Assembly: GCA_038209555.1 (NCBI GenBank)
Contig: JBBQXP010000001.1
Location: 68,728-132,727 of the forward strand
Origin: Gaiellales bacterium
Lineage (GTDB): Bacteria; Actinomycetota; Thermoleophilia; Gaiellales; Gaiellaceae
Length of the DNA: 64,000 nt
Reading direction: 5' to 3'
Within the stretch, counting starts at the first letter, position 1. Each line of letters opens with the position of its first letter. Positions 3,018-60,604 of the stretch are shown one piece after another. Under the pieces are notes generated by a model that ran no database searches, was not told where the DNA came from, and saw nothing but the letters and a program-made list of their open reading frames with translations. The position numbers and the translations under genes were made by a program.

Positions 3018-4091
3018 GTGCGCACCTCCCCGCAGCCGATCCTCGCCCATCTTGACCTGGACGCCTTCTTCGCCGCCGTGGAAGAGCTCGAGCACCCGGA
3101 GTTGGTCGGTAGACCTCTGATCGTGGGCGGCGACCCGCGCGGGCGTGGGGTCGTCGCGACCGCGAACTACGAGGCACGGCGGTACGGAATCGGATCCGCG
3201 ATGTCGAGCGCGGAAGCGCTTCGCCGTTGTCCGGAAGCCGTTTTCGTGCCTCCGAGCAAGGACCTCTACTCCCGCTACTCCCGCAGAGTCTGGGCGGCGG
3301 TACGGGAGGTCGTCCCGACCGTGGAGCGAACCGGCCTCGACGAGGGCTATCTCGATGTCGGAGAGGTGGCTCGCGGCTTCGGCGAGGCCCGCGCGGTGGC
3401 CGAGGCCGTGCAGGCAGCGGTCCGTGCCGCCGTTGGTCTCTCCTGCTCACTTGGCGTCGCGCCCTGCAAGGTGGTCGCGAAGGTCGCGAGCGACCGCCGG
3501 AAGCCTGGCGGAATCACGATCGTGCGGCCCGGCCGGGAAGCGGCGTTCCTGGCCCCCTTCGACCTGAGGCGCCTCCCCGGCGTCGGCCCGCGGGCCGACG
3601 AGCGCCTCCGTGCCGCGGGGCTCAGGATGATCGGCGACTTCGCGGCTCTCGACGACGAGCACCTCCGCCGGCTCCTACCCGGCAAGGTCGGTCAGGTCTT
3701 ACGGGATCGAGCGCGGGGCATCGACCTTCGCGGACTCGAGTTCGCGACCGAGAGCGTCTCGATCGGCCACGAGGAGACCTTCGCCCGGGACGTGTCCGAT
3801 CGGGAGCAGCTGCACGACGAGCTCCGGCGGATGTCCGCTCGCGTCGCCGAGCGGCTGCTCGAGACCGGGCACGCAGCCCGCACCGTCACGACGAAGGTCC
3901 GCTACCCGGACTTCTCGATCCGCAGCAGGTCGACGACGCTGGAAGCCGGGACGGACGACGGCACGAGGATCGGTGAGATTGCCTGCAACCTCCTGGACCG
4001 GGCGCTCAGTGACCGTCCCGGAGCCTTACGCCTCGTCGGCGTGAGCGTCGCGAACCTCGACGCGTACCGGCAGCTGGCTCTCGACCACTAA
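3018..4091 (+). CDS. dinB: DNA polymerase IV (Y-family)
   Basis: ILAHLDLDAFFAAVEELE, LDEGYLDV and SLGVAPCKVVAKVASDRRKPGG match DinB family motifs. ORF opens at ATG 2973, but GTG 3018 fits the family N-terminus and avoids 5' overlap with pafBC. Confidence 0.9.
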   Translation: MRTSPQPILAHLDLDAFFAAVEELEHPELVGRPLIVGGDPRGRGVVATANYEARRYGIGSAMSSAEALRRCPEAVFVPPSKDLYSRYSRRVWAAVREVVPTVERTGLDEGYLDVGEVARGFGEARAVAEAVQAAVRAAVGLSCSLGVAPCKVVAKVASDRRKPGGITIVRPGREAAFLAPFDLRRLPGVGPRADERLRAAGLRMIGDFAALDDEHLRRLLPGKVGQVLRDRARGIDLRGLEFATESVSIGHEETFARDVSDREQLHDELRRMSARVAERLLETGHAARTVTTKVRYPDFSIRSRSTTLEAGTDDGTRIGEIACNLLDRALSDRPGALRLVGVSVANLDAYRQLALDH

Positions 4092-4140
4092 CGTGAGAGG
4101 AGGGTCCCACGATGCACGTCAGGATTTCGAAGAGTGTGCC

Positions 4141-4200
4141 GAGACGGGCAAAGGCCGTCTCGTAACGGCTTGAGGAGCGTCTCAGCCGCGAAGGCGGCTG
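4141..4200. terminator. two GC-rich hairpins between convergent genes (possible bidirectional terminators)
   Basis: GAGACGG(4141-4147)/CCGTCTC(4155-4161). CAGCCGC(4183-4189)-GAAG-GCGGCTG(4194-4200). No clear U-tract. Confidence 0.35.
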
Positions 4201-4206
4201 GCGTGT

Positions 4207-4659
4207 TTACGCCGCCTTGCGCGTCTCTAAGTGCTGGTGCGAGGGGCAGTATTCGCGCTCGGGGAGCGGCGCCCGCTGGCACGGCTTCCCCTTTCGGGTG
4301 GTAGCGCGGCAGCGCGAGACGCCGCCGTCATAAGCGCCGGACTCGATCTGATCCTCGATGAAGTCGACTGCAGCGCCGATGCCTTCGCTGACCGCCCAGG
4401 CGACCTGCGCCTGCTGCGTGATCGGGAAATAGCGCCGGATGTCCTGGAAAAGAGTTCGCTCCGGCCGGGCGAAGTACCGGGGATCCTTGGCGAGACGCTC
4501 GACGGTCTCCTCGCACGCGGCCAGAACATCGCGACGGTATTCGGCCTGCACCTCGGCCGCCACATACGGGTCGATAAGGTCCTTGATCGAGCGATAAATA
4601 GCCCTCGAGTACTGATACATACGGAAGAGCATCCTCTCGTCAGCGGGTTCCGGTGCCAT
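4207..4659 (-). CDS. hypothetical protein with C-terminal Cys/His motif (C-x10-C-x13-C-x2-H)
   Basis: 150-aa ORF with high third-position GC and an AT-rich upstream region. C-terminal CRATTRKGKPCQRAPLPEREYCPSH. No family recognised. Confidence 0.6.
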   Translation of the reverse strand: MAPEPADERMLFRMYQYSRAIYRSIKDLIDPYVAAEVQAEYRRDVLAACEETVERLAKDPRYFARPERTLFQDIRRYFPITQQAQVAWAVSEGIGAAVDFIEDQIESGAYDGGVSRCRATTRKGKPCQRAPLPEREYCPSHQHLETRKAA

Positions 4660-4800: not shown

Positions 4801-5553
4801 CTACGGACTGACCTCGCGGACGTACGCAAGCGGGAATCCCCGGGAGCGCGCAGTGGCAAGACCGCTCTGGGCCGCGGCGACGGTGTCGTACACACCCGTG
4901 AACACGACGTAGTACCCGGGGTTCAATGTCAGGAAGTCGGATGAGTTCAGGATCCCGACGTTTGTAAGCCCGTTGGCGATCGCCTGGTTCGCCTTCCGCT
5001 CGGCGGCGGCGCGGCCCTTAGATGTCTCGACCGAGGCCAGTACGATTGTGTAGCCCTCCCTGCCCTGCGGCCAGGAGCGGATGTTCCCCGACTGGGTCGT
5101 CGTGACCGTCGTAGCCGTCGTCAGCGTGGAGGTGTCGAGCGTTGCGATCGTCTGCGTGGTCGGGCTCGTGATGGTCTCGATCGACGCGGTCGGGCCGTTG
5201 GTCTGGATTCCCGGGAGGGCTCCCACGGTGGCAGTCGTTCCGGGCCCGCGAGACACGAGTCGTCCCTTCTCATCGTCCTTGGTAGCGGCCACCGCCGCGA
5301 TCGCGCCGGCGACCAGCGCGACGAGAAAAAGCGCGAGGAGAGCCGCCCAGAGCCAGGCAGGGGAATCCCGCGACCACATCTCGGTCCGCATGAACGCGAC
5401 AGGGATCTGGGCGCCCGGCAGGCGCGCGCCGCACTCGAGACAATACTCTTGGTAGAGGTCGTGCGGCGCTCCGCAGCGCGGGCACGCAGGCGTTTCGGGC
5501 GGAGGCTCACTTGGAGCGCCGGGATCTGGTGGAAGGGGCGGCCGTGAGACCAC
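4801..5553 (-). CDS. zinc-ribbon / TM / SPOR-domain protein
   Basis: CPRCGAPHDLYQEYCLECG zinc ribbon, TM segment WLWAALLALFLVALVAGAIAAV, Thr-rich linker, SPOR-like C-terminus (YTIVLASV...GYYVVFTGVY). Start set at GTG 5553 (TAGTG overlap with upstream stop), not the ORF-track ATG 5784. Confidence 0.8.
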   Translation of the reverse strand: MVSRPPLPPDPGAPSEPPPETPACPRCGAPHDLYQEYCLECGARLPGAQIPVAFMRTEMWSRDSPAWLWAALLALFLVALVAGAIAAVAATKDDEKGRLVSRGPGTTATVGALPGIQTNGPTASIETITSPTTQTIATLDTSTLTTATTVTTTQSGNIRSWPQGREGYTIVLASVETSKGRAAAERKANQAIANGLTNVGILNSSDFLTLNPGYYVVFTGVYDTVAAAQSGLATARSRGFPLAYVREVSP

Positions 5554-6128
5554 TAGTCCTCGTTCGGCTCCTTGGCCCGCGGAGCTACGAGCGTCTGGTC
5601 CGCGCGCTCCTCCGTGTCGCCGAATTCGTCCGCCGCGACCGAGTTCCCGCAGGTGGAGCAGAAGTTCGCCTCGGCGGGGAGCGGATTTCCGCAGTGACCG
5701 CAGGCGACAACCGGCGCCGTCTCGGCTGCCGGTCGGCCGCAGTGGGCACAGAAGTGCGCTCCGCGGACGAGCGGGGCCCCGCACTTGCAGGGCGTCGCTA
5801 CTCGCATGCCCCGAGGAACGGCTTCGCTTGCCGCCAGGAACGCATCGAGCTCGTGGATGCGCCGCTCGAGCGCGAGCACCTCGGAGGCGCGGCTGACCAG
5901 CAATTCGGGCTTGAAGCGGTCGCGGCGCACCATCTCGACTGCCAACCCGCCGACGTCCCGCATCTCGATCTCGCGGCGGCGCGCCAGCGACCGGCGCTCG
6001 CGGAGCGCTGCCGCAGCCGTCAGCGGCGGCGCAGGATCGGGCGGTGGCATCTTCTCGCTCCCGTCGACCGCGAGTTCGGGCGGAGCAGGCGGCCTGCGAG
6101 CGAAGAGCGAGAAGCGACGGGCCGTCAT
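5553..6128 (-). CDS. double zinc-ribbon domain protein
   Basis: CKCGAPLVRGAHFCAHCG and CGHCGNPLPAEANFCSTCG repeats after a coiled-coil-like N-terminus. Translationally coupled to the SPOR gene. Confidence 0.75.
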   Translation of the reverse strand: MTARRFSLFARRPPAPPELAVDGSEKMPPPDPAPPLTAAAALRERRSLARRREIEMRDVGGLAVEMVRRDRFKPELLVSRASEVLALERRIHELDAFLAASEAVPRGMRVATPCKCGAPLVRGAHFCAHCGRPAAETAPVVACGHCGNPLPAEANFCSTCGNSVAADEFGDTEERADQTLVAPRAKEPNED

Positions 6129-19979: not shown

Positions 19980-20376
19980 GCCCGAGGAGGGGTCGGTAAA
20001 GGACCTCTTCGAAAAGACGCTCCTCGCAGCCCTCGGCGCCGTGGTGCTCACGAAGGAGCGAGCCGACGATCTCGCGGAGGAGCTGACGAAACGCGGCCGC
20101 ATGACCGGCGAGGAAGCGCGCGAGGTCGTCGACGAGCTCACGCATAGGTGGCGGGGAGACGCCATGCGCTTCAGCGAGCGCGCCGGCTCGACGATCTCCA
20201 GCCTTTCCCGTGAGCTCGGGCTTGTCACGCGGCGCGAGTGGGAGGAGCTCGAGCTGCGGCTGGCCCAGGTCGAGCACCGCCTCAGGCTCCTCGAGGGCCA
20301 GCCCGCGTCCGCTCGCGGGGCGAGGCCGGCGAAACCCGCACCCGGGCCGTCAAACCTCCCGCCAGAGCCCAGATGA
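19963..20376 (+). CDS. phasin-like protein (PHA synthesis regulator phasin family)
   Basis: ATG 19963 overlaps the secDF end. LFEKTLLAALGAVVLTKERADDLAEELTKRG and LGLVTRREWEELELRLAQVEHRL resemble COG3937-type phasins. Confidence 0.7.
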   Translation: MAAPGEPEEGSVKDLFEKTLLAALGAVVLTKERADDLAEELTKRGRMTGEEAREVVDELTHRWRGDAMRFSERAGSTISSLSRELGLVTRREWEELELRLAQVEHRLRLLEGQPASARGARPAKPAPGPSNLPPEPR

Positions 20377-20430
20377 TCTGCTTGGTCTGACCCGTCTCCG
20401 CGGGTACGCCAATTACCGAGCAATCATCTA
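20371..20430 (+). repeat. internally deleted 60-nt derivative of the palindromic intercistronic repeat (copy D)
   Basis: AGATGAT...CTTGGTCTGACCCGTC (exact 16-mer shared with copy B)...CGCCAATTACCGAGCAATCATCTA. The upstream TGA stop (20374-20376) lies inside its left terminus. Confidence 0.75.
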
Positions 20431-20449
20431 GGACCGTAAGATTCGAGCC

Positions 20450-46617: not shown

Positions 46618-47649
46618 GTGCAGACGGCACGCCGAACGCCCCTCTACGAGCGCCACACGGCGCTCGGCGCGCGCATCGTGGACTTCGCAGGCTGGGAGAT
46701 GCCGGTGCAGTACACGGGCATCCAGGAGGAGCACCGCGCGGTTCGGACGTCCGCGGGCGTCTTCGACGTCTCGCACATGGGCCAGCTCGAGCTGTCCGGC
46801 GCCGGAGCCCACGACTACCTCCAAGCACGGCTCTCCAACGATCTCGACCGGATCGGCGACGGGCGGGCCCAGTACACGCTCCTGACCAATGACCGGGGCG
46901 GGATCACGGACGACCTCATCGCGTATAGGCGCGGCGACGACGACTACCTGCTCGTCGTGAACGCATCGAATGTCGAGCCGGATCACGCGGCACTCCCTGA
47001 CACGACCGACGTCTCCGATCGTTATGCCCTTCTGGCCGTCCAGGGGCCCGAGGCGCTCGAGCGGCTCGGGCTCCAGCTGGAGCCGTTCACCTTCCGGGAG
47101 GACGACGTGCTTGGCGTCCGGTGCCTGGTCGCAGGGACCGGCTACACGGGTGAACGCGGCTGCGAGCTGGGCTGTGATCCCGACGACGCCGTCCGGCTCT
47201 GGGACGCGATCCTTGCGTGCGGAGTCGTCCCTTGCGGTCTCGGCGCCCGCGACACGCTACGCCTCGAGGCCTGTTACCCGCTTCACGGAAACGACATCTC
47301 ACCGGAGCGAACGCCGATCGAGGCGGGACTCGGCTGGGCGTGCGCGCTCGAGAAGGAGTTCACCGGTGTCGACGTGCTCAGGCGTCAGAAAGAAGAGGGC
47401 ACGGCCGAGCGCCTGGCCGCCTTCGTGCTGGAGGACAAGGGCATCCCCCGGCAGGGGATGAAGGTCATCGAGCCACCCGGTGAGGTCACCTCCGGCTCCC
47501 TCTCCCCGATGCTCGGCATCGGGATCGGGCTTGCCTACGTGCCGACCGGGTTCGCCGAGCCCGGAACGACGATCAGCGTCGACCTCCGCGGACGACTGCG
47601 AAAGGGGCATATCGTGAAGAAGCCGATCTACAAGCGAGAGGGGACGTAA
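46618..47649 (+). CDS. gcvT: glycine cleavage system aminomethyltransferase T
   Basis: [42 protein letters not shown]. Confidence 0.93.
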
Positions 47650-47651
47650 GG

Positions 47652-48044
47652 GTGGCAGCCGCAGAGAGCTATCCCGAAGGGCTGAAGTACCACCCCGAGC
47701 ACGACTGGGCGAAGGTGGACGGCGACACGGCGACCATCGGGATCACCTGGTACGCCCAGGACGCGCTCGGCGAGATCGTGCACTTCGAGCCCCCGGAACA
47801 GGGAAGCTCCGTCGCCAAGGACGAGAGCTACGGAGAGGTCGAGTCGGTGAAGGCCGTATCCGACCTCGTCTCGCCGCTCTCCGGCGAGGTGACCGAGGTA
47901 AACCAGGCAGTCGTAGACGAGCCCGAGACGATCAACGAGGAGCCCTACGGGGATGGCTGGCTCATCAAGGTGCGGCTCTCGGATCCCTCGGAGGTCGATG
48001 GGCTTCTCGACGTCGCTGCCTACAAGGAACTGCTCACAGAGTAG
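47652..48044 (+). CDS. gcvH: glycine cleavage system protein H
   Basis: HDWAKVDGDTATIGIT and lipoyl-lysine motif ESVKAVSD. Confidence 0.93.
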   Translation: MAAAESYPEGLKYHPEHDWAKVDGDTATIGITWYAQDALGEIVHFEPPEQGSSVAKDESYGEVESVKAVSDLVSPLSGEVTEVNQAVVDEPETINEEPYGDGWLIKVRLSDPSEVDGLLDVAAYKELLTE

Positions 48045-48208
48045 ATGGCCGATCGACAATTACCGCACCCACGGATGGCGGCCCAGACACGGCGCCAGGC
48101 CGCACCCTCGCCCTTGGCAAGGCTTCTAGCCTTGCCCGCGGACGATGGCACCCCCTGGCTTGGTCTGGCCCGTCCCCGCGGGCACGCCAATAACCGATCG
48201 TCCATCTA
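48042..48208 (+). repeat. palindromic intercistronic repeat, full copy A (167 nt)
   Basis: Aligns end to end with 51040-51206 and with the reverse complement of 55825-55985. Begins with the gcvH stop TAG and ends 1 nt before the gcvPA GTG. Confidence 0.9.
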
Positions 48209-49543
48209 GTGAGCTACCTCTCCCTCACGGACGCCGACCGCGAGGCGATGCTCGAAGCGATCGGCGTCTCGTCCGTGGACGAGCTCTTCCGAGACATCCC
48301 GAAGAGCCTGCGCCTCGACCGTCCCCTCGCCCTGGAGCCGGCCCTTTCGGAGCAGGAGCTCGTCGAGCACCTCTCCGAGCTAGCGGCGAAGAACGTGTCC
48401 GTCTCGGAGGAGCTCTCGTTCCTCGGGGCTGGGATGTACGACCACTACGTTCCCGCGGTGGTCGACGCGATGCTCGCGCGCGGCGAGTTCCTGACAGCCT
48501 ACACGCCCTACCAGCCGGAGATGAGTCAGGGCGTCCTGCAGGCCATCTTCGAGTACCAGACAGTGATCTGCGAGCTGACCGGCATGGACGTCTCGAACGC
48601 ATCCGGCTACGACGGAACGACCGTTGCCGCCGACGCCTGCTACGTCGCCAAGTACGTCACCGGGCGGACCAAGGTCGTCCTCGCCGAGACGTTGAATCCG
48701 CAGACCCGGCAGGTCGTGAAGACGTATGCACCGGGGTTCGGGCTCGACGTCGTGGAGGTGCCGCATCGCGACGGCGTCGTTGACCCGGACGAGCTCCGGC
48801 GCGCCGCGGAGAATGCCGCGTGCGTCATCTTCCAGCAACCCAACTTCTTCGGCTGCCTCGAGCCGGCTCCCGATCTGGCTGCGGCGGCCAACGACGCCGA
48901 GGCGCTCGCGGTCGCCCATGTCGATCCGCTCTCCTTGGGTGTTCTGGAGGCACCGGGTGCCTATGGGTGCGCGATCGCGATCGGCGAGGGCCAGGGTGCC
49001 GGGAACTACCTCTCCTACGGCGGCCCGCATTACGGCTTCTTCGCAGCCCGGAAGGACTTCATCCGCCGGATGCCAGGCCGGATCATCGGTGAGACGACCG
49101 ACCTGGACGGCGAGCGTGGATTCGTCCTGACGCTACAAACGCGCGAGCAACACATCCGTCGCGAGAAGGCGACCCACAACATGACCACGAACCAGACGCT
49201 TCTCGCCCTGGCCGGCCTGATCTATCTGAGCTGGCTGGGTCCGCAGGGGCTCAGGGAGGTGGGCGAGACCTGCATGGGTCTCGGGGCCTACGCGAAGGAG
49301 CAACTCGGGCTCCAACCGGTGTTTCCAGATCAGACAACGTTCAAGGAGTTTGCCGTCCGCGTCGGACGGAGCGGCCAGGACGCGATCCGCGCCGCCCGCG
49401 AGCGCGGCGTCCATCCGGGATATGCGCTTGGCCGCGACTACCAGGGCTTGGACGATGCCCTGCTCGTCTGCGTGACAGAGAAGCGGACGCCGGCGGACAT
49501 CGACCGTTTGGCCGCCGTCTTGCAGGAGGTCGCGGCGGCGTGA
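48209..49543 (+). CDS. gcvPA: glycine dehydrogenase (decarboxylating) subunit 1
   Basis: N-terminus SYLSLTDADREAMLEAIGVSSVDELFRDIP matches the GcvPA start. Split P-protein arrangement. Confidence 0.92.
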   Translation: MSYLSLTDADREAMLEAIGVSSVDELFRDIPKSLRLDRPLALEPALSEQELVEHLSELAAKNVSVSEELSFLGAGMYDHYVPAVVDAMLARGEFLTAYTPYQPEMSQGVLQAIFEYQTVICELTGMDVSNASGYDGTTVAADACYVAKYVTGRTKVVLAETLNPQTRQVVKTYAPGFGLDVVEVPHRDGVVDPDELRRAAENAACVIFQQPNFFGCLEPAPDLAAAANDAEALAVAHVDPLSLGVLEAPGAYGCAIAIGEGQGAGNYLSYGGPHYGFFAARKDFIRRMPGRIIGETTDLDGERGFVLTLQTREQHIRREKATHNMTTNQTLLALAGLIYLSWLGPQGLREVGETCMGLGAYAKEQLGLQPVFPDQTTFKEFAVRVGRSGQDAIRAARERGVHPGYALGRDYQGLDDALLVCVTEKRTPADIDRLAAVLQEVAAA

Positions 49544-51039
49544 AGCTGATCTTCGAGAAGTCGCAATCTGGGCGCCGCGCCTCGCGCGTGCCGCGTTCCG
49601 ACCTGCCCAAGGTCGACATCCCGGAAGGGCTCCGGCGCGAGCGGCTTCCGCGGCTGCCCGAACTCGCCGAGCCCGAGGTCGTCAGGCACTTCACGGCGCT
49701 CGCCGATCGGACCTTCGGCGTTGACACGGGGTTCTACCCGCTCGGCTCGTGCACGATGAAGCACAACCCGCGGGTGAACGAGCGCCTCGTCATGCTGCCG
49801 GGCTTCCGCGATCTGCACCCACACCAGGAGGAGGAGGGATCGCAGGGCGCGCTCGAGCTGATGTGGCGGCTGCAGCAGATCCTCGCAGAGGTGGCGGGGC
49901 TCGACGCGGTCTCGCTCCAGCCTGCAGCCGGTTCACAGGGAGAGCTCACCGGGCTCATGCTCATGCGGGCCTACTTCGCCGACCGAGGCCAGGGCGAGCA
50001 GCGGACGACCGTGATCACCGCGGACACGGCCCACGGCACGAACCCTGCGAGCGTGACGATGTCGGGCTACCAGCTCAAGAAGGTCGAGACGGACGAGCGT
50101 GGGAACCTCGACCTCGATGACCTCCGCGCCAAGGTCGATGAAAGCACGGCCGGACTCATGCTCACGAATCCCTCGACGCTCGGCCTCTTCGACGAGCACA
50201 TCGAGGAGGTCGCGGAGATCTTCCACGATGCTGGAGCGCTCCTGTATTACGACGGCGCGAACCTGAACGCGGTCTGCGGCATCTCGCGCCCCGGTGATAT
50301 GGGCTTCGACATCATCCACTACAACCTCCACAAGACCTTCTCGCAACCGCATGGCGGGGGCGGGCCCGGCGGTGGGCCGGTGGCCGTGCGGGAGATTCTC
50401 GAGCCCTTCCTGCCCGCGCCGACGATCGTCCAGGAGGGCGATGCGTTCCGGCTCGACTACGACCGACCGAAGTCGATCGGCAAGGTCCGCGGCTTCTGCG
50501 GGCCGTTCGGCGTCTTCGTACGCTCCTACGCGTTTATCCGCGCGTACGGGCCGGGGCTCCGAGCCATGTCCGAGGCTGCCGTCCTGAACGCGAACTACAT
50601 GCTGGCAGGCCTCAGGGAGGTCTACGAGCTTCCGTTCGACCGGCTCTGCATGCACGAGTTCGTGCTCTCGGCACGCGGCCTGAAGCGGGAGCACGGCGTT
50701 AGCGCCCTCGATGTGGCCAAGCGGCTCATGGACTACGGATTCCACCCGCCGACGGTCTACTTTCCGCTGATCGTGCCCGAGGCACTCATGATCGAGCCGA
50801 CGGAGACGGAGGCGAAGGAGACGCTGGACGACTTCGTCGAGGCCATGCGGTCGATCGCCCGGGAGGCCGCCGAGGACCCCGGCTTGGTGAAGGACGCGCC
50901 CCATAGCCGGCCCGTTCGCCGGCTCGATGAGGTCAAGGCCGCGAAGCGCGCGATCGTCAAGTATGGGTTCGAGGAGCACCCAGACCTGTCCGGTCGGCCC
51001 GCCGCGGGTGAGGCGCTCGAGGCACAGAAGGGCGCTTAG
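49540..51039 (+). CDS. gcvPB: glycine dehydrogenase (decarboxylating) subunit 2
   Basis: LGSCTMKHNP and PLP-lysine region NLHKTFSQPHGGGGPG. GTGA overlap with gcvPA. Confidence 0.92.
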   Translation: MKLIFEKSQSGRRASRVPRSDLPKVDIPEGLRRERLPRLPELAEPEVVRHFTALADRTFGVDTGFYPLGSCTMKHNPRVNERLVMLPGFRDLHPHQEEEGSQGALELMWRLQQILAEVAGLDAVSLQPAAGSQGELTGLMLMRAYFADRGQGEQRTTVITADTAHGTNPASVTMSGYQLKKVETDERGNLDLDDLRAKVDESTAGLMLTNPSTLGLFDEHIEEVAEIFHDAGALLYYDGANLNAVCGISRPGDMGFDIIHYNLHKTFSQPHGGGGPGGGPVAVREILEPFLPAPTIVQEGDAFRLDYDRPKSIGKVRGFCGPFGVFVRSYAFIRAYGPGLRAMSEAAVLNANYMLAGLREVYELPFDRLCMHEFVLSARGLKREHGVSALDVAKRLMDYGFHPPTVYFPLIVPEALMIEPTETEAKETLDDFVEAMRSIAREAAEDPGLVKDAPHSRPVRRLDEVKAAKRAIVKYGFEEHPDLSGRPAAGEALEAQKGA

Positions 51040-51206
51040 TAGATGGTTGATCGGTAATTGCCGCACCCCCGGATGGCGGCCCAGACACGGCGCCAGGCCG
51101 CACCCTCGCCCTTGTCAAGGCTTCTAGCCTTGCCTGCGGACGATGGCGCACCCTGGCTTGGTCTGACCCGTCCCCGAGGTCACGCCAATTACCGATCAAC
51201 CATCTA
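51040..51206 (+). repeat. palindromic intercistronic repeat, full copy B (167 nt, perfect 21-nt termini)
   Basis: TAGATGGTTGATCGGTAATTG...CAATTACCGATCAACCATCTA. Central hairpin CAAGGCT-TCT-AGCCTTG. Starts right after the gcvPB TAG and ends 2 nt before the next GTG. Confidence 0.92.
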
Positions 51207-51208
51207 AC

Positions 51209-51811
51209 GTGCGCCGGCTCGGGATTATCCACCGTTGGGACGGCGCGCCGGGCGCGGACTGGTATCCGTGGCTCCGGGACGAGCTTCGCGCGCTCGATCC
51301 GGCTCCCTTCGACGCGATCGGGATTCCGGAGCTGCCCGACCCGGGTACCCCTCGGCCAGAGGCATGGGTGCCCGCGCTCCTGGAATGGCTCGGAGACGAC
51401 GCACGGGATCGAGCCGCAACGGTGCTCGCCGGTCACAGCGTCGGGTGCCAGACGATCGCCAGGGCGCTCGCCGAGGGCGGTCCTCCCGTCGAAGGCTGTC
51501 TCCTGGTTGCACCCTGGTTCTGGCTCGACGAGGAGGAGCGGGACGAGACGAGCGAGCTCTGGGCGACGCCTTTCGACGACGCAGCCGCGCGTGCCGCAGC
51601 CGGCAAGGTCGTTGCCCTGCTCTCGACGGACGACCCCTACACCTCGGACTGGGAAGCCAACGGCCGGGCATGGGAAGAGCGAATCGGGGCGGAGGTGGTC
51701 GTCGAGCCCGGCGGGGAGCACTTCACCGGGGAGCGCGAGCCGAAGGTGCTCGAGCTCCTGCTGGAGCGCTTCGGGCGCGCTGCTCGCAAGCCTCAAGTCC
51801 GGGCATCGTGA
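51209..51811 (+). CDS. YdeN/RBBP9-like serine hydrolase (alpha/beta fold)
   Basis: GIIHRWDGAPGADWYPWL and nucleophile elbow GHSVG. About 200 aa, as in the family. Confidence 0.8.
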   Translation: MRRLGIIHRWDGAPGADWYPWLRDELRALDPAPFDAIGIPELPDPGTPRPEAWVPALLEWLGDDARDRAATVLAGHSVGCQTIARALAEGGPPVEGCLLVAPWFWLDEEERDETSELWATPFDDAAARAAAGKVVALLSTDDPYTSDWEANGRAWEERIGAEVVVEPGGEHFTGEREPKVLELLLERFGRAARKPQVRAS

Positions 51812-55568: not shown

Positions 55569-55823
55569 CTACTCGCGGATCTCGAGCGTCCGAACCCCTC
55601 CAAGGTCGATCCATGTGCGACCGGGTGCGCGCACGATGCGAAAAAGGACGCTCGAGCACGTCCGGCAGCGGACAACTGTTCCAGGCGCACGCAGGTAGAC
55701 CACTACTTCGGCGATGGGACCGATCGCCCCGCACGCTCTGCATACCACCGTCGAGACGGTCATCTCGATGCCAAAGATCTCGAGAAGCTCGCCTCCGATC
55801 GCGTTTCCGTCCAGGTCAATCAT
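55569..55823 (-). CDS. small CxxC...CxxC protein resembling the DUF6510 family
   Basis: MIDLDGNAIGGELLEIFG...CRACGA...YLRAPGTVVRCRTC. Last gene of the Moco/FAD oxidoreductase operon. Confidence 0.75.
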   Translation of the reverse strand: MIDLDGNAIGGELLEIFGIEMTVSTVVCRACGAIGPIAEVVVYLRAPGTVVRCRTCSSVLFRIVRAPGRTWIDLGGVRTLEIRE

Positions 55824-55824
55824 C

Positions 55825-55985
55825 TAGATGGTTGGTCGGTAATTGGCGTGCCCGCGGGGGCGGGCCAGACCAAGCCAGGGTGTGCCATCGCCCGTAGGCA
55901 AGGCTAGAAGCCTTGACAAGGGTGAGGGTGGGCGCCGTGTCTGGGCCGCCATCCGAGGGTGTGGTAATTGTCGATCAAACATCTA
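55825..55985 (-). repeat. palindromic intercistronic repeat, full copy C (161 nt, minus-strand orientation)
   Basis: The reverse complement aligns with copies A and B with one 6-nt deletion. Its first 3 nt are the stop TAG (55985-55983) of the upstream minus-strand gene. It ends 1 nt before the ATG at 55823. Confidence 0.9.
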
Positions 55986-56729
55986 ACCACCGGTCGCTCC
56001 GAAGCGCTCTGTCCTGATGCTCGCCGGCGCGTACCCGACCTCGACGAGCGCATCGGCCGCCGTCTCGACGAACGACGTCGGCCCGCACACGAACGCCCGG
56101 GCCGCCCTCTCGGGCGGCCAGGCAACCTCGCCTAGCATTTCGACGTCCAGGCGACGGGCGTACCCGGCCCAGCCGGGCGGCTGCGAGCGAGTCAGCGTGT
56201 GGACGACCTCGACCCTCGTATCCTCGGCCAAGCGCTCGAGCTCATCCTGGTAGATCACGTCCTCCCAGGCACGCGACGAGTAGAGAAGCCGTGCCGGCAC
56301 ATCGCTCCCGGACGCCGCGCGGTGGCGGAGCATCGCCATGAGCGGGACGACGCCCGAGCCGCCGGCGACCAGCAGCAGGGGGCAGTCCGTCGAGGCCTCC
56401 CAGACGAAGTACCCGCCGATCGGACCGCGGATCTCCAGTCCGTCGCCGGCCCGAAGCTCGTCGGCAAGGTAAGGCGACACCTCGCCGTCGTCGAGGCGCT
56501 CGACCGTGATTGCGAGAGGCTCCCCCGGCGCCGAGGCGATCGAGTAGCTTCGCTGCGCCTGATAGCCGTCCTCGGCGGTCAGGCGCACGTCGAGGTGCTG
56601 GCCGGCCCGGTGTCCCGGCCAGGCCGGCGCGTCGAGGACGATCGTGACCACGCGTGCGGTCTCCCGAACGGAGTCCGTGACCTCGGCGACCTGCCACGTC
56701 AGTCGCCCCAGTACCGCTGTTCCTGCCAC
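55983..56729 (-). CDS. ferredoxin-reductase-type FAD/NAD(P)-binding oxidoreductase
   Basis: GQHLDVRLTAEDGYQAQRSYSIAS (RxYS FAD motif), LLVAGGSGVVP, FVCGP. Start uncertain (GTG 56729, CTG 56702 or ATG 56810). Confidence 0.85.
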   Translation of the reverse strand: MAGTAVLGRLTWQVAEVTDSVRETARVVTIVLDAPAWPGHRAGQHLDVRLTAEDGYQAQRSYSIASAPGEPLAITVERLDDGEVSPYLADELRAGDGLEIRGPIGGYFVWEASTDCPLLLVAGGSGVVPLMAMLRHRAASGSDVPARLLYSSRAWEDVIYQDELERLAEDTRVEVVHTLTRSQPPGWAGYARRLDVEMLGEVAWPPERAARAFVCGPTSFVETAADALVEVGYAPASIRTERFGATGG

Positions 56730-57301
56730 GGATCGCCACGAAGATGGTAGCCGTTCGACTCCCAGAAGCCAGGTTCGTCCTCGTCCCGAAGCGCGAGGCC
56801 GCGCACCCATTTAGCGCTCTTCCAGAAGTAGAGATGCGGGACGAGGAGTCGTGCCGGTCCTCCGTGCTCAGGCTCGAGAGGCTCCCCGTTGAACGTGTAG
56901 GCGACCCACGCCTTGCCGTCGGTCACGTCCTCAAGCGGCAGGTTCGTCGTGTAGTCGCCGTCGCAGAACGCCACCACGTACGAGGCGTCGTGGTCCCCTC
57001 GGGCGAGCAGCGTGTCGACCGAGACTCCCTCCCAGGTCGTGTCGAGTTTCGACCACTTCGTGACGCAGTGGATGTCCTTCGTGATCGGCTCGCTCGGAAG
57101 ATCCTGAAACTCTTCCCAGGTCCAGGTGACAGGCTCGGCGCCGCCCTGGATCGAGAACGTCCAGTCGTCGAGCGGCGTCCGGGGCGTCGGGCCGGCCGAG
57201 AGGACTGGGAAGTCGTCGACGAGGTACTGACCGGGGGGAATCCGGTCGCCCTGACCGTCGTCCCGTCGCCGGCCGCGGAAGCCGCGTGAGACGAAGCTCA
57301 T
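56699..57301 (-). CDS. sulfite-oxidase-like molybdopterin-dependent oxidoreductase
   Basis: DIHCVTKWSKLDTTWEGV, EHGGPARLLVPHLYFWKSAKWV. Confidence 0.88.
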   Translation of the reverse strand: MSFVSRGFRGRRRDDGQGDRIPPGQYLVDDFPVLSAGPTPRTPLDDWTFSIQGGAEPVTWTWEEFQDLPSEPITKDIHCVTKWSKLDTTWEGVSVDTLLARGDHDASYVVAFCDGDYTTNLPLEDVTDGKAWVAYTFNGEPLEPEHGGPARLLVPHLYFWKSAKWVRGLALRDEDEPGFWESNGYHLRGDPWQEQRYWGD

Positions 57302-58877: not shown

Positions 58878-59480
58878 CTAGGGAGTTCCAATCCGGCGCG
58901 GCGGCCAGTAGGTGACGACGACCGGGCCGATGAGCGCGTCGTCTGACACGGGCCCCCACGTGCGCGAGTCGCAGGAGAGATCGCGGTTGTCGCCCATCAT
59001 GAAGTAGCTCCCGTTCGGAACCCGCCATTGGCGCGTCGTTCGATCTTCGTGTGAGCTTCGAACATACGGCTCGGCAAGTCTCGTTCCGTTCACGGAGACG
59101 ACGCCATTGCGCGTCGAGACGAGGTCGCCGGGCAGCCCGATCAGGCGCTTCACGAAGACGCCGCCTTGGCCACAGAGCTCTTCGGCCCGGGCCGGCGTCT
59201 CGAAGACGACGATCTCCCCGCGCCGCGGATCCCGGAAGTGGTAGATGAAACGGTTCGCGACCACGCGGTCCGAGTGTGCGCCCATGCAGCCGAGCGCCGG
59301 GCGCGCGCAGTGGAGCGTCGGCTCCATCGAAGGCGAGGGGATTCGGTACGGGTTCGCGACCTCCACTTTGACCGCGAGGACGGCGCCGACCGCGAGGACG
59401 ATCGTCGCGAGCCATTCGACCGTGGAGCGCCAGCCCTCTGGCAGGCGCCGCAGGAGGGGCTCGAGGGGAGGAAAGGCCAC
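58878..59480 (-). CDS. lepB: signal peptidase I
   Basis: SPSMEPTL (Ser box), VKRLIGLPGD (Lys box), GDNRDLSCDSR. GTG 59480 gives 200 aa. Confidence 0.9.
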   Translation of the reverse strand: MAFPPLEPLLRRLPEGWRSTVEWLATIVLAVGAVLAVKVEVANPYRIPSPSMEPTLHCARPALGCMGAHSDRVVANRFIYHFRDPRRGEIVVFETPARAEELCGQGGVFVKRLIGLPGDLVSTRNGVVSVNGTRLAEPYVRSSHEDRTTRQWRVPNGSYFMMGDNRDLSCDSRTWGPVSDDALIGPVVVTYWPPRRIGTP

Positions 59481-59527
59481 GTGCGCCAGGGTAGATGCTG
59501 GCGGAGCGCCGGAGGTAGGCTGACCCG

Positions 59528-60604
59528 ATGGTCGACCTCCGGTCCGACACCCTGACCCAGCCGACTCCCGGCATGCGAAAGGCCATGGCCGAGGCCGTCG
59601 TCGGTGACGAGCAAAAGCGCGAGGACCCGACCGTGATCGCGCTCGAGGAGCGGGGCGCCGCACTTCTGGGCCAGCAGGCGGCGATCTATCTCCCGACCGC
59701 GACGATGGCCAACCAGATCGCCCTTCGGCTCCACTCCGAGCCGGGGGACGAGGTGATCGCCGAGGCGAGCGCGCACGTCTTCCGATACGAGCTCGGAGGG
59801 CCCGCCGTCCACTCCGGGCTTTCGATGCGTGCGATCACGACGACCGACGGGCGCTTCGCGGCCGCCGACGTGCGGGAGCTGATCAGCCACCCGGACGACC
59901 TGCACTCGCCGGCGAGCCGGATCCTCTGCGTCGAGAACACCCATAACGGGGGTGGGGGACGTGTGTGGCCGCTCGCGCAGCTTCGGGAGGTGTGCGCCGA
60001 GGCCAGAGCTTACGGGCTCCGGGCACATCTGGACGGCGCCCGGCTCCTGAACGCGGTCGTGGCGAGCGGGGTGCAGGCGGCCGAGATCGGCAAGGAGTTC
60101 GACTCTGTGACTCTGTGCCTGTCGAAGGGTCTTGGCTGTCCGCTCGGGGCGCTCCTCGCGACCTCGGACGACCTCGCGCCGAAGGCACGACGCCTGAAGC
60201 ACCTGTTCGGCGGGGCCATGCGCCAAGCCGGCGTGGTCGCCGCGACGGGCCTCTACGCATTCGATCACCATGTGGAGCGCCTCGCCGAGGATCACGCGAA
60301 CGCCCGCAAGCTCGCCGTCGGGCTCGCGGAGGCCGGGCTTCCGGTCGACCTCGCCCAGGTCGAGACGAACTTCGTGCTCCTGGACGCAAAGCCGCTGGGA
60401 CTTACGGGGGAGGAGGTGCTGGGGCGCCTCAGAGGGGAGGGGGTTCTCCTTTCCTTCGCCGCCGGAAAGGACGTGCTCCGCGCCGTCACCCACCTGGACG
60501 TCTCCGCCGAGGACGTCGAGCGCGCGATCGAGGGTGCCGGCCGAGCTCTTTCCGGGGAGCGCCGCCCGGTTGAGCTCGCGGCGGACGCGCCAACTCCCTT
60601 CTGA
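59528..60604 (+). CDS. ltaE: low-specificity L-threonine aldolase
   Basis: VDLRSDTLTQPTPGMRKAM, GDEQKREDPTV, PLP-lysine region LCLSKGLGCPLG. Confidence 0.88.
   Translation: MVDLRSDTLTQPTPGMRKAMAEAVVGDEQKREDPTVIALEERGAALLGQQAAIYLPTATMANQIALRLHSEPGDEVIAEASAHVFRYELGGPAVHSGLSMRAITTTDGRFAAADVRELISHPDDLHSPASRILCVENTHNGGGGRVWPLAQLREVCAEARAYGLRAHLDGARLLNAVVASGVQAAEIGKEFDSVTLCLSKGLGCPLGALLATSDDLAPKARRLKHLFGGAMRQAGVVAATGLYAFDHHVERLAEDHANARKLAVGLAEAGLPVDLAQVETNFVLLDAKPLGLTGEEVLGRLRGEGVLLSFAAGKDVLRAVTHLDVSAEDVERAIEGAGRALSGERRPVELAADAPTPF

What the first reader, a model, noticed from the sequence alone, without database searches (positions are those of the whole stretch)
48045..48209. Element-spanning mini-ORF links the upstream stop to the downstream start (TAG-ATG ... 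TAG-TG)
In copy A an ATG directly follows the gcvH stop (TAGATG). It opens a 54-codon frame, MADRQLPHPRMAAQTRRQAAPSPLARLLALPADDGTPWLGLARPRGHANNRSSI. That frame ends at TAG 48207-48209, whose G is the first base of the gcvPA GTG. Copy C has the same frame (55982..55824, 52 codons, MFDRQLPHPRMAAQTRRPPSPLSRLLALPTGDGTPWLGLARPRGHANYRPTI), ending TAG immediately before the next ATG. Copy B has an early TAA (51055) but an in-frame second ATG (51073) that runs to the terminal TAA (51205-51207). By my hand count, A versus B differ in 7 synonymous and 7 non-synonymous codons. That is more synonymous change than random drift would usually give, but n is tiny. The element may keep ribosomes coupled across the insertion by termination-reinitiation at both ends, limiting polarity. 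Caveats: the peptide is low-complexity Pro/Arg/Ala-rich, the opposite strand is also open (ORF 48020..48205), and open frames are common at this GC content.
Basis: partly seen in the sequence, partly recalled or inferred. Interest (0 to 1): 0.65.

Follow-up and report, generated by a model that had tools for sequence, protein, structure and literature searches.

The report
Mobile hairpin repeat carrying a translation-relay ORF
The mini-ORF is real and belongs to a roughly 165-bp mobile hairpin repeat of soil Gaiellaceae that lands in the stop/start junctions of operons; comparison of about 120 insertion sites suggests its 54-codon frame is kept open so ribosomes can pass from the upstream gene to the downstream one.

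Summary

The element is a non-autonomous hairpin repeat (MITE-like). Its core is 163 bp (GATGG…CCATC). It appears to duplicate a TA target. It has dozens of copies per Gaiellaceae MAG and many filled/empty site polymorphisms.

Part of the TAG-ATG…TAG geometry is automatic. Core plus TA is 165 nt, or 55 codons, so insertion into the TA of a stop codon rebuilds the stop on both sides.

Four results go beyond geometry, across 170 copies at 122 sites:
- Between co-directional genes the ORF-bearing orientation is sense 64:6.
- The frame is intact at 58/62 such sites, against 19/36 in other contexts (Fisher 4e-6). Copy age does not explain this.
- A second subfamily has different ends, a GTG start and a 162-bp core, yet keeps a boundary-to-boundary 54-codon frame.
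- The ORF stop overlaps or abuts the downstream start at 37/65 sites, and 36 of the 41 tightest junctions lack a Shine-Dalgarno-like motif.

There is no selection on the peptide itself.

Best reading: a translation-relay ORF that limits polarity. Mycobacterial MIRUs are the known precedent. There is no ribosome-level evidence.

The parts
48042..48208 (+). Copy A of the element. It consists of TA + the 163-bp core (48044-48206, GATGG…CCATC) + TA, and forms a near full-length imperfect palindrome.
   Evidence: Metatranscriptome contigs from related populations hold the gcvH-gcvPA junction without positions 48040-48207.
48045..48209 (+). Relay mini-ORF of copy A. It has 54 codons, with its ATG abutting the gcvH TAG. 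Its TAG stop overlaps the gcvPA GTG by 1 nt.
47652..48044 (+). gcvH, the upstream gene. Its stop TAG is formed by the target TA plus the first G of the element core.
   Evidence: Pfam GCV_H, E 5e-43.
48209..49543 (+). gcvPA, the downstream gene. Its GTG start sits at the element's right boundary, and the preceding 20 nt, which are element sequence, contain no Shine-Dalgarno-like motif.
   Evidence: Pfam GDC-P, E 3e-121, residues 2-438 on profile positions 2-429.
51040..51206 (+). Copy B of the element, lying between gcvPB (49540-51039) and a serine-hydrolase gene (51209-51811). Its frame is interrupted by CAA>TAA at codon 5 (51055-57), followed by an in-frame TTG at 51058 and ATG at 51073. The terminal TAA is at 51205-07.
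   Evidence: It is the only substitution-type break among the subfamily-1 copies lying between co-directional genes (one subfamily-2 copy, L116, also carries one).
55825..55985 (-). Copy C of the element. Its core is 157 bp because of an in-frame 6-nt deletion. It lies between an FAD/NAD oxidoreductase gene (55983-56810) and a DUF6510 gene (55569-55823). The relay ORF is 55982..55824.
   Evidence: An empty orthologous site exists in L087 at 4061-4463.
20372..20431 (+). Internally deleted fourth copy, with a left end of about 9 nt joined to the right 50 nt (…CCAATTACCGAGCAATCATCTAG).

Best explanation
The mini-ORF belongs to a non-autonomous mobile hairpin repeat (MITE-like) of Gaiellaceae, within Actinomycetota. 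The element inserts at TA, very often the TA of a TAG or TAA stop codon in a tight operon junction.

One strand of the element carries a 54-codon frame. It begins with a start codon at the left boundary (ATG at core positions 2-4, or GTG at 1-3 in subfamily 2). It runs to a stop codon exactly at the right boundary.

Proposed mechanism (inferred):
1. A ribosome terminating on the upstream gene melts the base of the hairpin and reinitiates on the abutting or overlapping start.
2. It translates through the roughly -85 kcal/mol hairpin.
3. It terminates at the right boundary.
4. It reinitiates on the downstream gene. That gene's start overlaps or abuts this stop and usually has no Shine-Dalgarno sequence of its own.

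The ORF therefore acts as a translation relay that limits polarity. That covers loss of coupling, occlusion of the start codon by the hairpin, and possibly Rho action on a C-rich untranslated stretch. The peptide itself is not the selected product.

Shown: the anatomy, mobility, orientation bias, context-dependent integrity of the frame and junction geometry.
Inferred: that ribosomes actually translate the frame, and that this rescues downstream expression.
For: Family and mobility:
- More than 108 genome loci, almost all from Gaiellaceae or Actinomycetes MAGs, with at least 36 loci in one MAG, plus 87 metagenome loci.
- 48 filled-versus-empty pairings. Clean single-TA empty sites are seen for L047/L168 versus window 5356-5752, L087 versus window 59317-59694, and copy C versus L087.
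- An empty gcvH-gcvPA allele occurs in four metatranscriptomes.

Orientation:
- 64 sense to 6 antisense at independent sites between co-directional genes (binomial 2e-13).
- Orientation follows local gene direction, not contig strand.

Frame integrity:
- 58/62 intact against 19/36 elsewhere, Fisher 4e-6 (subfamily 1 p=0.0035; subfamily 2 p=0.001).
- The result survives five threshold settings.
- It is not an age effect: mean substitutions are 9.4 against 8.4.
- Indels between co-directional genes are 4 in-frame to 3 frameshift; elsewhere they are 0 to 9 (Fisher 0.019).

Independent replicate:
- Subfamily 2 has different terminal repeats (GTGCCCC…GGGGCAC), a 162-bp core and a GTG start, yet keeps a 54-codon boundary-to-boundary frame.
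- Its premature-TGA variant sits mostly at convergent sites.

Junctions at co-directional sites:
- Spacing from the upstream stop to the ORF start is -1 at 13 sites, 0 at 14, and 1 to 7 at 23.
- Spacing from the ORF stop to the downstream start is -1 at 24, -4 at 5 and 0 at 8, out of 65.
- 36 of 41 tight junctions lack GGAG, GAGG or AGGA upstream of the start.

Remodelled junctions still keep stop/start overlaps. Examples are L134 (TGATG at both ends, against TAGagttATG in the empty site) and L048 (TGGTGA).

The rare antisense copy L038 has lost the TAA that normally closes the other strand's ATG frame.

In L074 the upstream TAG became GAG, so the gene now reads through the whole element to its terminal TGA.

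The concept has a published precedent in MIRUs (PMC12548453; PMC3184786).
Against: - There is no direct evidence of translation. No Ribo-seq exists, and gene callers almost never call this ORF: 3 proteins among 5.8 billion.
- Codon usage is not gene-like (log-odds -12 and -9; GC3 0.63-0.70 against about 0.85 in flanking genes). There is no codon-position periodicity.
- Depletion of new stops relative to a uniform-mutation null also occurs in two control frames: the mirror ATG frame (5 against 19.3 expected) and forward frame 0 (4 against 17.1). In subfamily 1 that test is therefore not frame-specific. The context contrast there rests on frameshifts and lost start codons.
- The orientation bias alone could come from RNA properties. 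The antisense RNA would fold about 30 kcal/mol more stably in every copy.
- Much of the TAG-ATG…TAR geometry follows from TA duplication inside a stop codon.
- TA flanks are intact on both sides in only 36/90 copies, so the insertion chemistry is not settled.
- Gene contexts were called with my own codon-usage model, not a curated annotation.
Confidence: 0.66

Rival explanations
1. The ORF is an incidental by-product. The element is a hairpin MITE that targets TA in stop codons. A 165-nt increment and 67% G+C leave a frame open by chance. The orientation bias reflects RNA-level effects rather than translation. For example, the far more stable antisense hairpin might act as a terminator or RNase III substrate, or the element might interact with Rho.
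For: - Core + TA is 165 nt, or 55 codons, so stops are rebuilt automatically.
- The antisense RNA is about 30 kcal/mol more stable in 79/79 and 27/27 sites.
- There is no peptide-level selection.
- Two control frames are also depleted of new stops.
Against: - It does not explain why frameshifts, lost start codons and premature stops concentrate in copies that are not between co-directional genes, despite equal age.
- It does not explain why two subfamilies with unrelated ends both keep a boundary-to-boundary 54-codon frame.
- It does not explain why remodelled junctions keep stop/start overlaps.
Confidence: 0.2
2. The element is primarily a structured nucleic-acid module selected for its hairpin, and the ORF is secondary. 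It could be a REPIN-like element mobilised as single-stranded DNA, or an mRNA processing or stability element inside operons.
For: - The whole length is palindromic, with z-scores of -6.2 and -8.8.
- The central 80 nt or so is conserved between subfamilies whose arms differ but remain self-complementary. There are 53 compensatory cells in subfamily 2.
- The core evolves at about 45% of the flanking third-position rate.
- G·U pairs favour one strand, 18 against 6.
Against: - Hairpin selection and relay-ORF selection are not mutually exclusive.
- The hairpin alone does not predict context-dependent frame integrity.
- Clean TA duplications at empty sites fit a cut-and-paste DDE element better than a REP/RAYT mechanism.
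- There is no Rfam match.
Confidence: 0.1
3. The mini-ORF encodes a functional small protein that is spread by the element.
For: - The central peptide segment TRRQ..PSPLSRLLALPA is read in the same frame in both subfamilies.
- There is a modest synonymous excess in subfamily 1.
Against: - No Pfam family.
- Non-genic codon usage.
- Flat codon-position variability.
- A synonymous deficit in subfamily 2.
- The conserved centre is equally explained by the conserved DNA hairpin.
Confidence: 0.03

Closest known systems
Mycobacterial interspersed repetitive units (MIRUs; Supply et al. 1997, as summarised in PMC3184786 and PMC12548453)
   Same: Both are intergenic repeats inside operons of an actinobacterium. 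Both are co-transcribed with the flanking genes. Each carries a small ORF whose ends overlap the stop and start codons of its neighbours. MIRUs are interpreted as allowing insertion with little effect on expression through translational coupling.
   Different: MIRUs are 40-100 bp units, often in tandem arrays, with tetranucleotide direct repeats and at most imperfect terminal repeats. This element differs in several ways:
- It is a single 163-bp near-perfect hairpin.
- It appears to duplicate a TA target.
- Its ORF has 54 codons.
- It occurs in Gaiellaceae.

I did not compare its sequence with MIRUs. This report also adds the context-dependent integrity test.
Correia elements (CREE) of Neisseria (from my own knowledge)
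   Same: Both are MITEs of about 100-160 bp with TA target duplication. Both have terminal inverted repeats that form long hairpins in co-transcribed mRNA. Both are high in copy number and show filled/empty polymorphism.
   Different: Correia elements are known for promoters, IHF sites and RNase III processing, not for a boundary-to-boundary relay ORF or a strong sense-orientation bias inside operons.
Rickettsia palindromic elements and other repeats fused to ORFs (PMC3184786)
   Same: They are palindromic mobile repeats whose open frame tolerates translation. Here, L074 shows an upstream gene reading through the whole element.
   Different: Rickettsia palindromic elements sit in frame inside coding sequences and become part of the protein. 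This element normally forms a separate cistron between two genes.
REP/REPIN elements mobilised by RAYT transposases (from my own knowledge)
   Same: Both are high-copy extragenic hairpins formed from two inverted arms.
   Different: REPINs leave no target duplication, carry a conserved GTAG head and are usually outside coding frames. Here, clean TA duplications are seen and a coding frame spans the element.
Engineered leader-cistron or bicistronic designs for translational coupling (mentioned in PMC12548453)
   Same: A short upstream ORF ending at the start of the target gene delivers ribosomes and removes the effect of mRNA structure.
   Different: Those designs are synthetic. This element is natural, mobile and coupled at both of its ends.

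Membership tests
MITE (non-autonomous DDE-transposon derivative, IS630/Tc1-mariner-like) | Small size with no transposase gene | tested here: met
   The core is 163 bp in 112/133 subfamily-1 copies and 162 bp in 32/37 subfamily-2 copies. The only ORF is the 54-codon frame, which has no Pfam match.
MITE (non-autonomous DDE-transposon derivative, IS630/Tc1-mariner-like) | Terminal inverted repeats | tested here: met
   The left end GATGGTTGATCGGCAATTACC matches the reverse complement of the right end, GATGGTTGGTCGGTAATTGGC. Complementarity extends over the whole length.
MITE (non-autonomous DDE-transposon derivative, IS630/Tc1-mariner-like) | TA target-site duplication | tested here: inconclusive
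   Three filled/empty pairs show a single TA in the empty site. However, TA is present on both sides in only 36/90 copies, even among the youngest ones. The empty gcvH-gcvPA allele also differs by 168 nt rather than 165.
MITE (non-autonomous DDE-transposon derivative, IS630/Tc1-mariner-like) | Multicopy, with presence/absence polymorphism between related genomes | tested here: met
   170 copies at 122 sites, and 48 filled-versus-empty pairings.
MITE (non-autonomous DDE-transposon derivative, IS630/Tc1-mariner-like) | An autonomous partner element with the same ends | tested here: not met
   No pair of matching ends 0.6-3.5 kb apart enclosing a transposase was found in the roughly 1.3 Mb held. 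Whole genomes could not be searched.
MIRU-type coupled intergenic repeat | A small ORF whose ends overlap or abut the stop and start codons of the flanking genes | tested here: met
   Spacing distributions at 65 co-directional sites.
MIRU-type coupled intergenic repeat | One orientation relative to transcription of the operon | tested here: met
   64 sense to 6 antisense.
MIRU-type coupled intergenic repeat | Tandem 40-100 bp units; occurrence in Mycobacterium; sequence relatedness to MIRUs | tested here: not met
   The element occurs as single 163-bp units in Gaiellaceae MAGs. Only L120 carries an internal 48-nt duplication. No sequence comparison with MIRUs was run.
REP/REPIN | No target duplication; conserved GTAG head; associated RAYT gene | tested here: inconclusive
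   The base before TAG is variable (C 33, T 13, G 10), and clean TA duplications are seen. A RAYT gene was not searched for.
Known structured RNA family (Rfam) | A match to a curated covariance model | tested here: not met
   No hit at gathering thresholds in the 64-kb window. The only hit was a chance-level miRNA match at E 2.5.

The most novel reading that the evidence does not exclude
A transposable-element family has evolved a built-in 'translation relay': a boundary-to-boundary ORF with its own start and stop. This lets it colonise the otherwise forbidden stop/start junctions of translationally coupled operons.

Host and element then co-adapt at those junctions. Junctions are remodelled to TGATG or GTGA overlaps, and the other strand's frame is opened in rare antisense copies.

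Because ribosomes must unwind a hairpin of roughly -85 kcal/mol, the element could also set the translation ratio of neighbouring subunits such as gcvH:gcvPA. That would make it a mobile tuner of operon stoichiometry.
Probability: 0.45. Interest if true: 0.75.

Novelty: new variant of a known kind. Interest (0 to 1): 0.62.

Why it matters
Tight stop/start junctions in operons are thought to be fragile, because any insertion should break translational coupling and cause polarity. This family appears to get round that by bringing its own relay cistron.

If confirmed, it would be a second natural example after MIRUs, and one with much better statistical support, of a mobile repeat that is neutralised by being translated.

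It also has practical consequences:
- Annotation pipelines miss these ORFs. Only 3 of billions of predicted proteins match.
- They may mis-call the starts of downstream genes.
- The element is a compact natural part for coupling cistrons across strong RNA structure.
- It gives a clean comparative assay for selection on 'openness' without selection on the peptide: frame integrity as a function of insertion context.

Tried and rejected
1. Rfam at gathering and permissive thresholds found no family.

2. Peptide homology gave no Pfam hit and only 3 database proteins. The small-protein reading was rejected.

3. Codon-position periodicity and synonymous/non-synonymous tests showed no consistent signal.

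4. A uniform-placement null for new stop codons gave a strong depletion in the ORF frame (3 against 16.3). Two control frames were depleted as well, so I do not use this test as frame-specific evidence.

5. A strict TA target duplication held in only 36/90 copies. Alternative models (a 3-bp duplication, CTAG, or insertion of a 165-nt unit without duplication) were checked by eye against the flanks. None fitted all copies.

6. Replication-strand (single-stranded DNA) insertion bias was rejected as the cause of the orientation bias. Nearby copies on one contig point in opposite directions and follow the local genes.

7. Stop avoidance was rejected as the cause of the strand asymmetry in folding. 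Only 1 of 18 A·C mismatches removes a stop.

8. The search for the autonomous transposase in the held loci found nothing. The one candidate pair of ends, in L156, encloses a 145-aa ORF that by eye looks like a Fur-type metal regulator (not profile-tested) and no transposase-sized ORF.

9. The weak match at window 26606 looks like chance.
Full report
**1. Observation**

Copy A:
- The gcvH stop TAG (48042-44) is followed directly by ATG (48045).
- The 54-codon frame gives the quoted peptide.
- It ends at TAG 48207-09, whose G begins the GTG of the 444-aa ORF 48209..49543.

Pfam identifies the neighbours:

| Coordinates | Strand | Gene |
|---|---|---|
| 46618-47649 | + | gcvT |
| 47652-48044 | + | gcvH |
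| 48209-49543 | + | gcvPA (profile aligned from residue 2) |
| 49540-51039 | + | gcvPB |
| 51209-51811 | + | serine hydrolase |
| 55983-56810 | - | FAD/NAD oxidoreductase |
| 55569-55823 | - | DUF6510 |

Copy C (55982..55824, minus strand, 52 codons) and copy B (TAA at 51055, in-frame ATG at 51073, terminal TAA at 51205-07) are as described. The count of 7 synonymous and 7 non-synonymous codons is exact. In copy B the TAA is immediately followed by an in-frame TTG at 51058.

**2. What the element is**

The three copies align at 87-90% identity. Each is a near full-length imperfect palindrome with the core GATGG…CCATC.
- The sense RNA of copy A folds at -87.4 kcal/mol (z -6.2).
- The antisense RNA folds at -113.9 kcal/mol (z -8.8).
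- No Rfam family matches.

Almost all came from Gaiellaceae or uncultured Actinomycetes MAGs, with at least 36 loci from a single MAG. A metagenome scan added 87 soil or sediment loci.

Pooled results:
- 133 copies of subfamily 1 at 94 sites. The core is 163 bp in 112 of them.
- 37 copies of subfamily 2 at 30 sites. This subfamily shares the central 80 nt or so but has different arms (GTGCCCCTCC…GGGGCAC) and a 162-bp core.
- A single third type, in L144.

All three types share a subterminal GGCAAY motif at positions 12-17.

Evidence for mobility:
- Deletion derivatives exist, including a 60-bp one in the window at 20372-20431.
- There are 48 filled-versus-empty pairings within the held loci.
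- Three clean cases have a single TA in the empty site. These are L047/L168 versus window 5356-5752, L087 versus window 59317-59694, and window copy C versus L087.
- Four soil metatranscriptomes contain a gcvH-gcvPA junction lacking 48040-48207. There gcvH ends GAG TGA and overlaps the gcvPA GTG as GTGA.

So the element is a recently active, non-autonomous mobile repeat. It sits in what is, in relatives, a classical 4-nt overlap between coupled genes.

The TA duplication is not fully settled:
- Both flanks are TA in only 36/90 copies, even among the youngest.
- No autonomous partner was found in the DNA held.

**3. How much of the pattern is automatic**

The core (163 nt) plus one TA is 165 nt, or 55 codons. 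Insertion into the TA of a TAG or TAA stop codon therefore has three automatic results:
- The upstream stop is rebuilt, because TA plus the core's first G gives TAG.
- The core ATG lands in frame directly behind that stop.
- The original stop codon, together with any overlapping start, is reproduced at the right boundary.

This explains why 51 of 55 right flanks beginning with TA read TAG or TAA. Geometry alone therefore predicts TAG-ATG…TAR for any insertion into a stop codon.

It does so only if the internal frame is open, and only in one orientation. The family consensus is open in the forward ATG frame. The mirror ATG frame on the other strand is closed by TAA at codon 5.

**4. Tests that go beyond geometry**

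I called the coding strand of each flank with a codon-usage log-odds model. The model was trained on 282 long ORFs from the same loci. Copies were clustered into independent sites by flank similarity.

(a) Orientation
- Between co-directional genes the ORF-bearing strand is sense at 64 sites and antisense at 6 (binomial 2e-13).
- Neighbouring copies on one contig point in opposite directions and follow the local genes. A replication-strand insertion bias is therefore unlikely.

(b) Frame integrity by context. 'Intact' means a start codon is present, there is no premature stop, and there is no frameshifting length change.

| Set | Co-directional sense sites | Convergent, divergent or antisense sites | Fisher p |
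|---|---|---|---|
| All | 58/62 | 19/36 | 4e-6 |
| Subfamily 1 | 48/51 | 16/24 | 0.0035 |
| Subfamily 2 | 12/13 | 3/12 | 0.001 |

(All.)
- Five different threshold and flank settings give p between 7e-4 and 2.5e-6.
- Age does not explain the contrast. Mean substitutions from the consensus are 9.4 against 8.4 in subfamily 1, and 15.9 against 13.0 in subfamily 2.
- Indels are 4 in-frame to 3 frameshifting in the first class, and 0 to 9 in the second (Fisher 0.019).

(c) Replication in subfamily 2
- The ends, the start codon (GTG, overlapping the upstream stop as TAGTG) and the core length all differ.
- The frame still runs 54 codons from boundary to boundary.
- A variant with a TGA at codon 11 is found at four convergent sites but only one co-directional site.

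(d) Junctions at 65 co-directional sites

| Spacing | Counts |
|---|---|
| End of upstream stop to ORF start | -1 at 13 sites; 0 at 14; 1 to 7 at 23; -8 at 7 (the gene uses the element's own TGA at core positions 7-9) |
| ORF stop to first downstream start | -1 at 24 sites; -4 at 5; 0 at 8; 1 to 13 at 17 |

(All.)
- Of the 41 tightest junctions, 36 have no GGAG, GAGG or AGGA in the 15 nt before the start.

(e) Junction evolution
- Orthologous or empty-site comparisons show junctions that differ from the simple TA expectation yet still keep overlaps. Examples are L134 (TGATG at both ends, against TAGagttATG in the empty site), L061 (TGATG on the left) and L048, the orthologue of copy A (TAGA…TGGTGA).
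- In L074 the upstream TAG has become GAG. The gene then reads through the entire element to its terminal TGA.
- One of the six antisense sites, L038, has lost the TAA that normally closes the other strand's ATG frame.

**5. What is not selected**

The peptide is not under selection:
- It has no Pfam match.
- Only three predicted proteins among 5.8 billion match it.
- Codon usage is non-genic (log-odds -12 and -9).
- Variability by codon position is 0.053/0.052/0.066.
- In six orthologous pairs the core diverges by about 0.08, against 0.18 at flanking third positions and 0.03-0.05 at first and second positions. There is no coding periodicity (0.096/0.059/0.093).
- Synonymous changes are in slight excess in subfamily 1 (+2.9 sd) but in deficit in subfamily 2 (-2.2 sd).

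The moderate constraint on the core fits selection on the hairpin. Subfamily 2 alone shows 53 compensatory cells at 11 pairs.

My uniform-placement null for new stop codons gave 3 observed against 16.3 expected in the ORF frame. Two control frames were also depleted, so I do not rely on that test.

**6. Mechanism**

Shown:
- a mobile hairpin;
- a boundary start and a boundary stop;
- sense orientation;
- frame integrity conditional on having a downstream co-directional gene;
- downstream starts without a Shine-Dalgarno motif that abut the ORF stop.

Inferred:
- The terminating ribosome of the upstream gene covers and melts the basal stem, which pairs the left ATG region with the right boundary.
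- It reinitiates at the abutting start, unwinds the hairpin by translating it, and terminates at the right boundary.
- It then reinitiates on the downstream gene.

Insertions that cannot do this would be removed by selection. These include the wrong orientation and a broken frame. That would generate the observed filter.

The sense strand is C-rich (C/G 1.37 and 1.30). Translation may therefore also protect against Rho. This is speculation.

Metatranscriptome contigs contain a full copy with coding flanks on both sides (X28 record 10). That is weak evidence of co-transcription. Contigs carry no strand information, and DNA carry-over is possible.

**7. Rivals**

- An incidental ORF, with orientation set by RNA properties. 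In every copy the antisense RNA would fold about 30 kcal/mol more stably. This explains result (a) in section 4 but not (b) to (e).
- A hairpin-centred function or a REPIN-like mechanism. This is compatible with the conserved centre and the strand-biased G·U pairs (18 against 6, p 0.02). It does not predict context-dependent frame integrity, and it sits poorly with the clean TA duplications.
- A functional small protein. This is rejected by the results in section 5.

**8. Comparison with what is known**

The logic matches what was proposed for mycobacterial MIRUs:
- They are small ORFs in intergenic repeats of operons.
- Their ends overlap the neighbouring stop and start codons.
- They are thought to allow insertion with minimal effect on expression (PMC3184786; PMC12548453).

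Structurally the element resembles TA-duplicating hairpin MITEs such as Correia elements (my own knowledge). It is not a MIRU: it is not tandem, is not 40-100 bp long and is not from Mycobacterium.

I found no paper on such elements in Gaiellales. The library does not cover all journals.

**9. Verdict**

The finding is real.

It is a new variant of a known kind: a hairpin MITE family with a built-in relay cistron. Copy B in the window is the one substitution-broken example among operon-internal subfamily-1 copies. It may still relay through its TAA-TTG junction (speculative).

Noticed in passing
window 20372-20431: A fourth, internally deleted copy of the element: about 9 nt of the left end joined to the right 50 nt, ending …CAATCATCTAG. 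It lies 26 nt upstream of an ATG (20451).
   Followed up: partly
window 5356-5752, 59317-59694 and 795-1192: The window holds empty versions of sites that carry the element in other genomes (L047/L168, L087 and L097). Insertion polymorphism therefore runs in both directions between these relatives.
   Followed up: partly
All copies, e.g. window 48042-48208; The antisense strand would fold about 30 kcal/mol more stably than the sense strand in every copy of both subfamilies. The consensus has 9 G·U pairs on the antisense strand against 3 on the sense strand, and the sense strand is C-rich (C/G 1.3-1.4). Only one of these mismatches avoids a stop codon. The cause is unexplained.
   Followed up: partly
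L028, L068, L084 and others (subfamily 2); L144 (third type): The subfamilies share the central 80 nt or so and a subterminal GGCAAY motif, but their terminal 11 nt are unrelated. This is the reverse of the usual MITE pattern, in which the ends are conserved and the interior varies.
   Followed up: partly
L074 2137-2303 compared with L091 1413-1579: In one orthologue the upstream gene's TAG has mutated to GAG. The gene then reads through the whole element and gains a 55-residue C-terminal extension ending at the element's terminal TGA.
   Followed up: partly
L044 987-1067, L059 4501-4547, L097 1604-1649, L183 (site of L042): Very short derivatives consisting of the two ends back to back (46-81 bp), plus a possible excision footprint (cccTAGATGCcaatgg) at an otherwise empty site.
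   Followed up: no
L120 1300-1520: One copy carries an internal 48-nt tandem duplication of the central hairpin region.
   Followed up: no
window 49540-49543: gcvPA and gcvPB overlap by 4 nt (ORF 48209..49543 and ORF 49540..51039). This is the same tight-coupling architecture that the element has invaded at the two neighbouring junctions.
   Followed up: no
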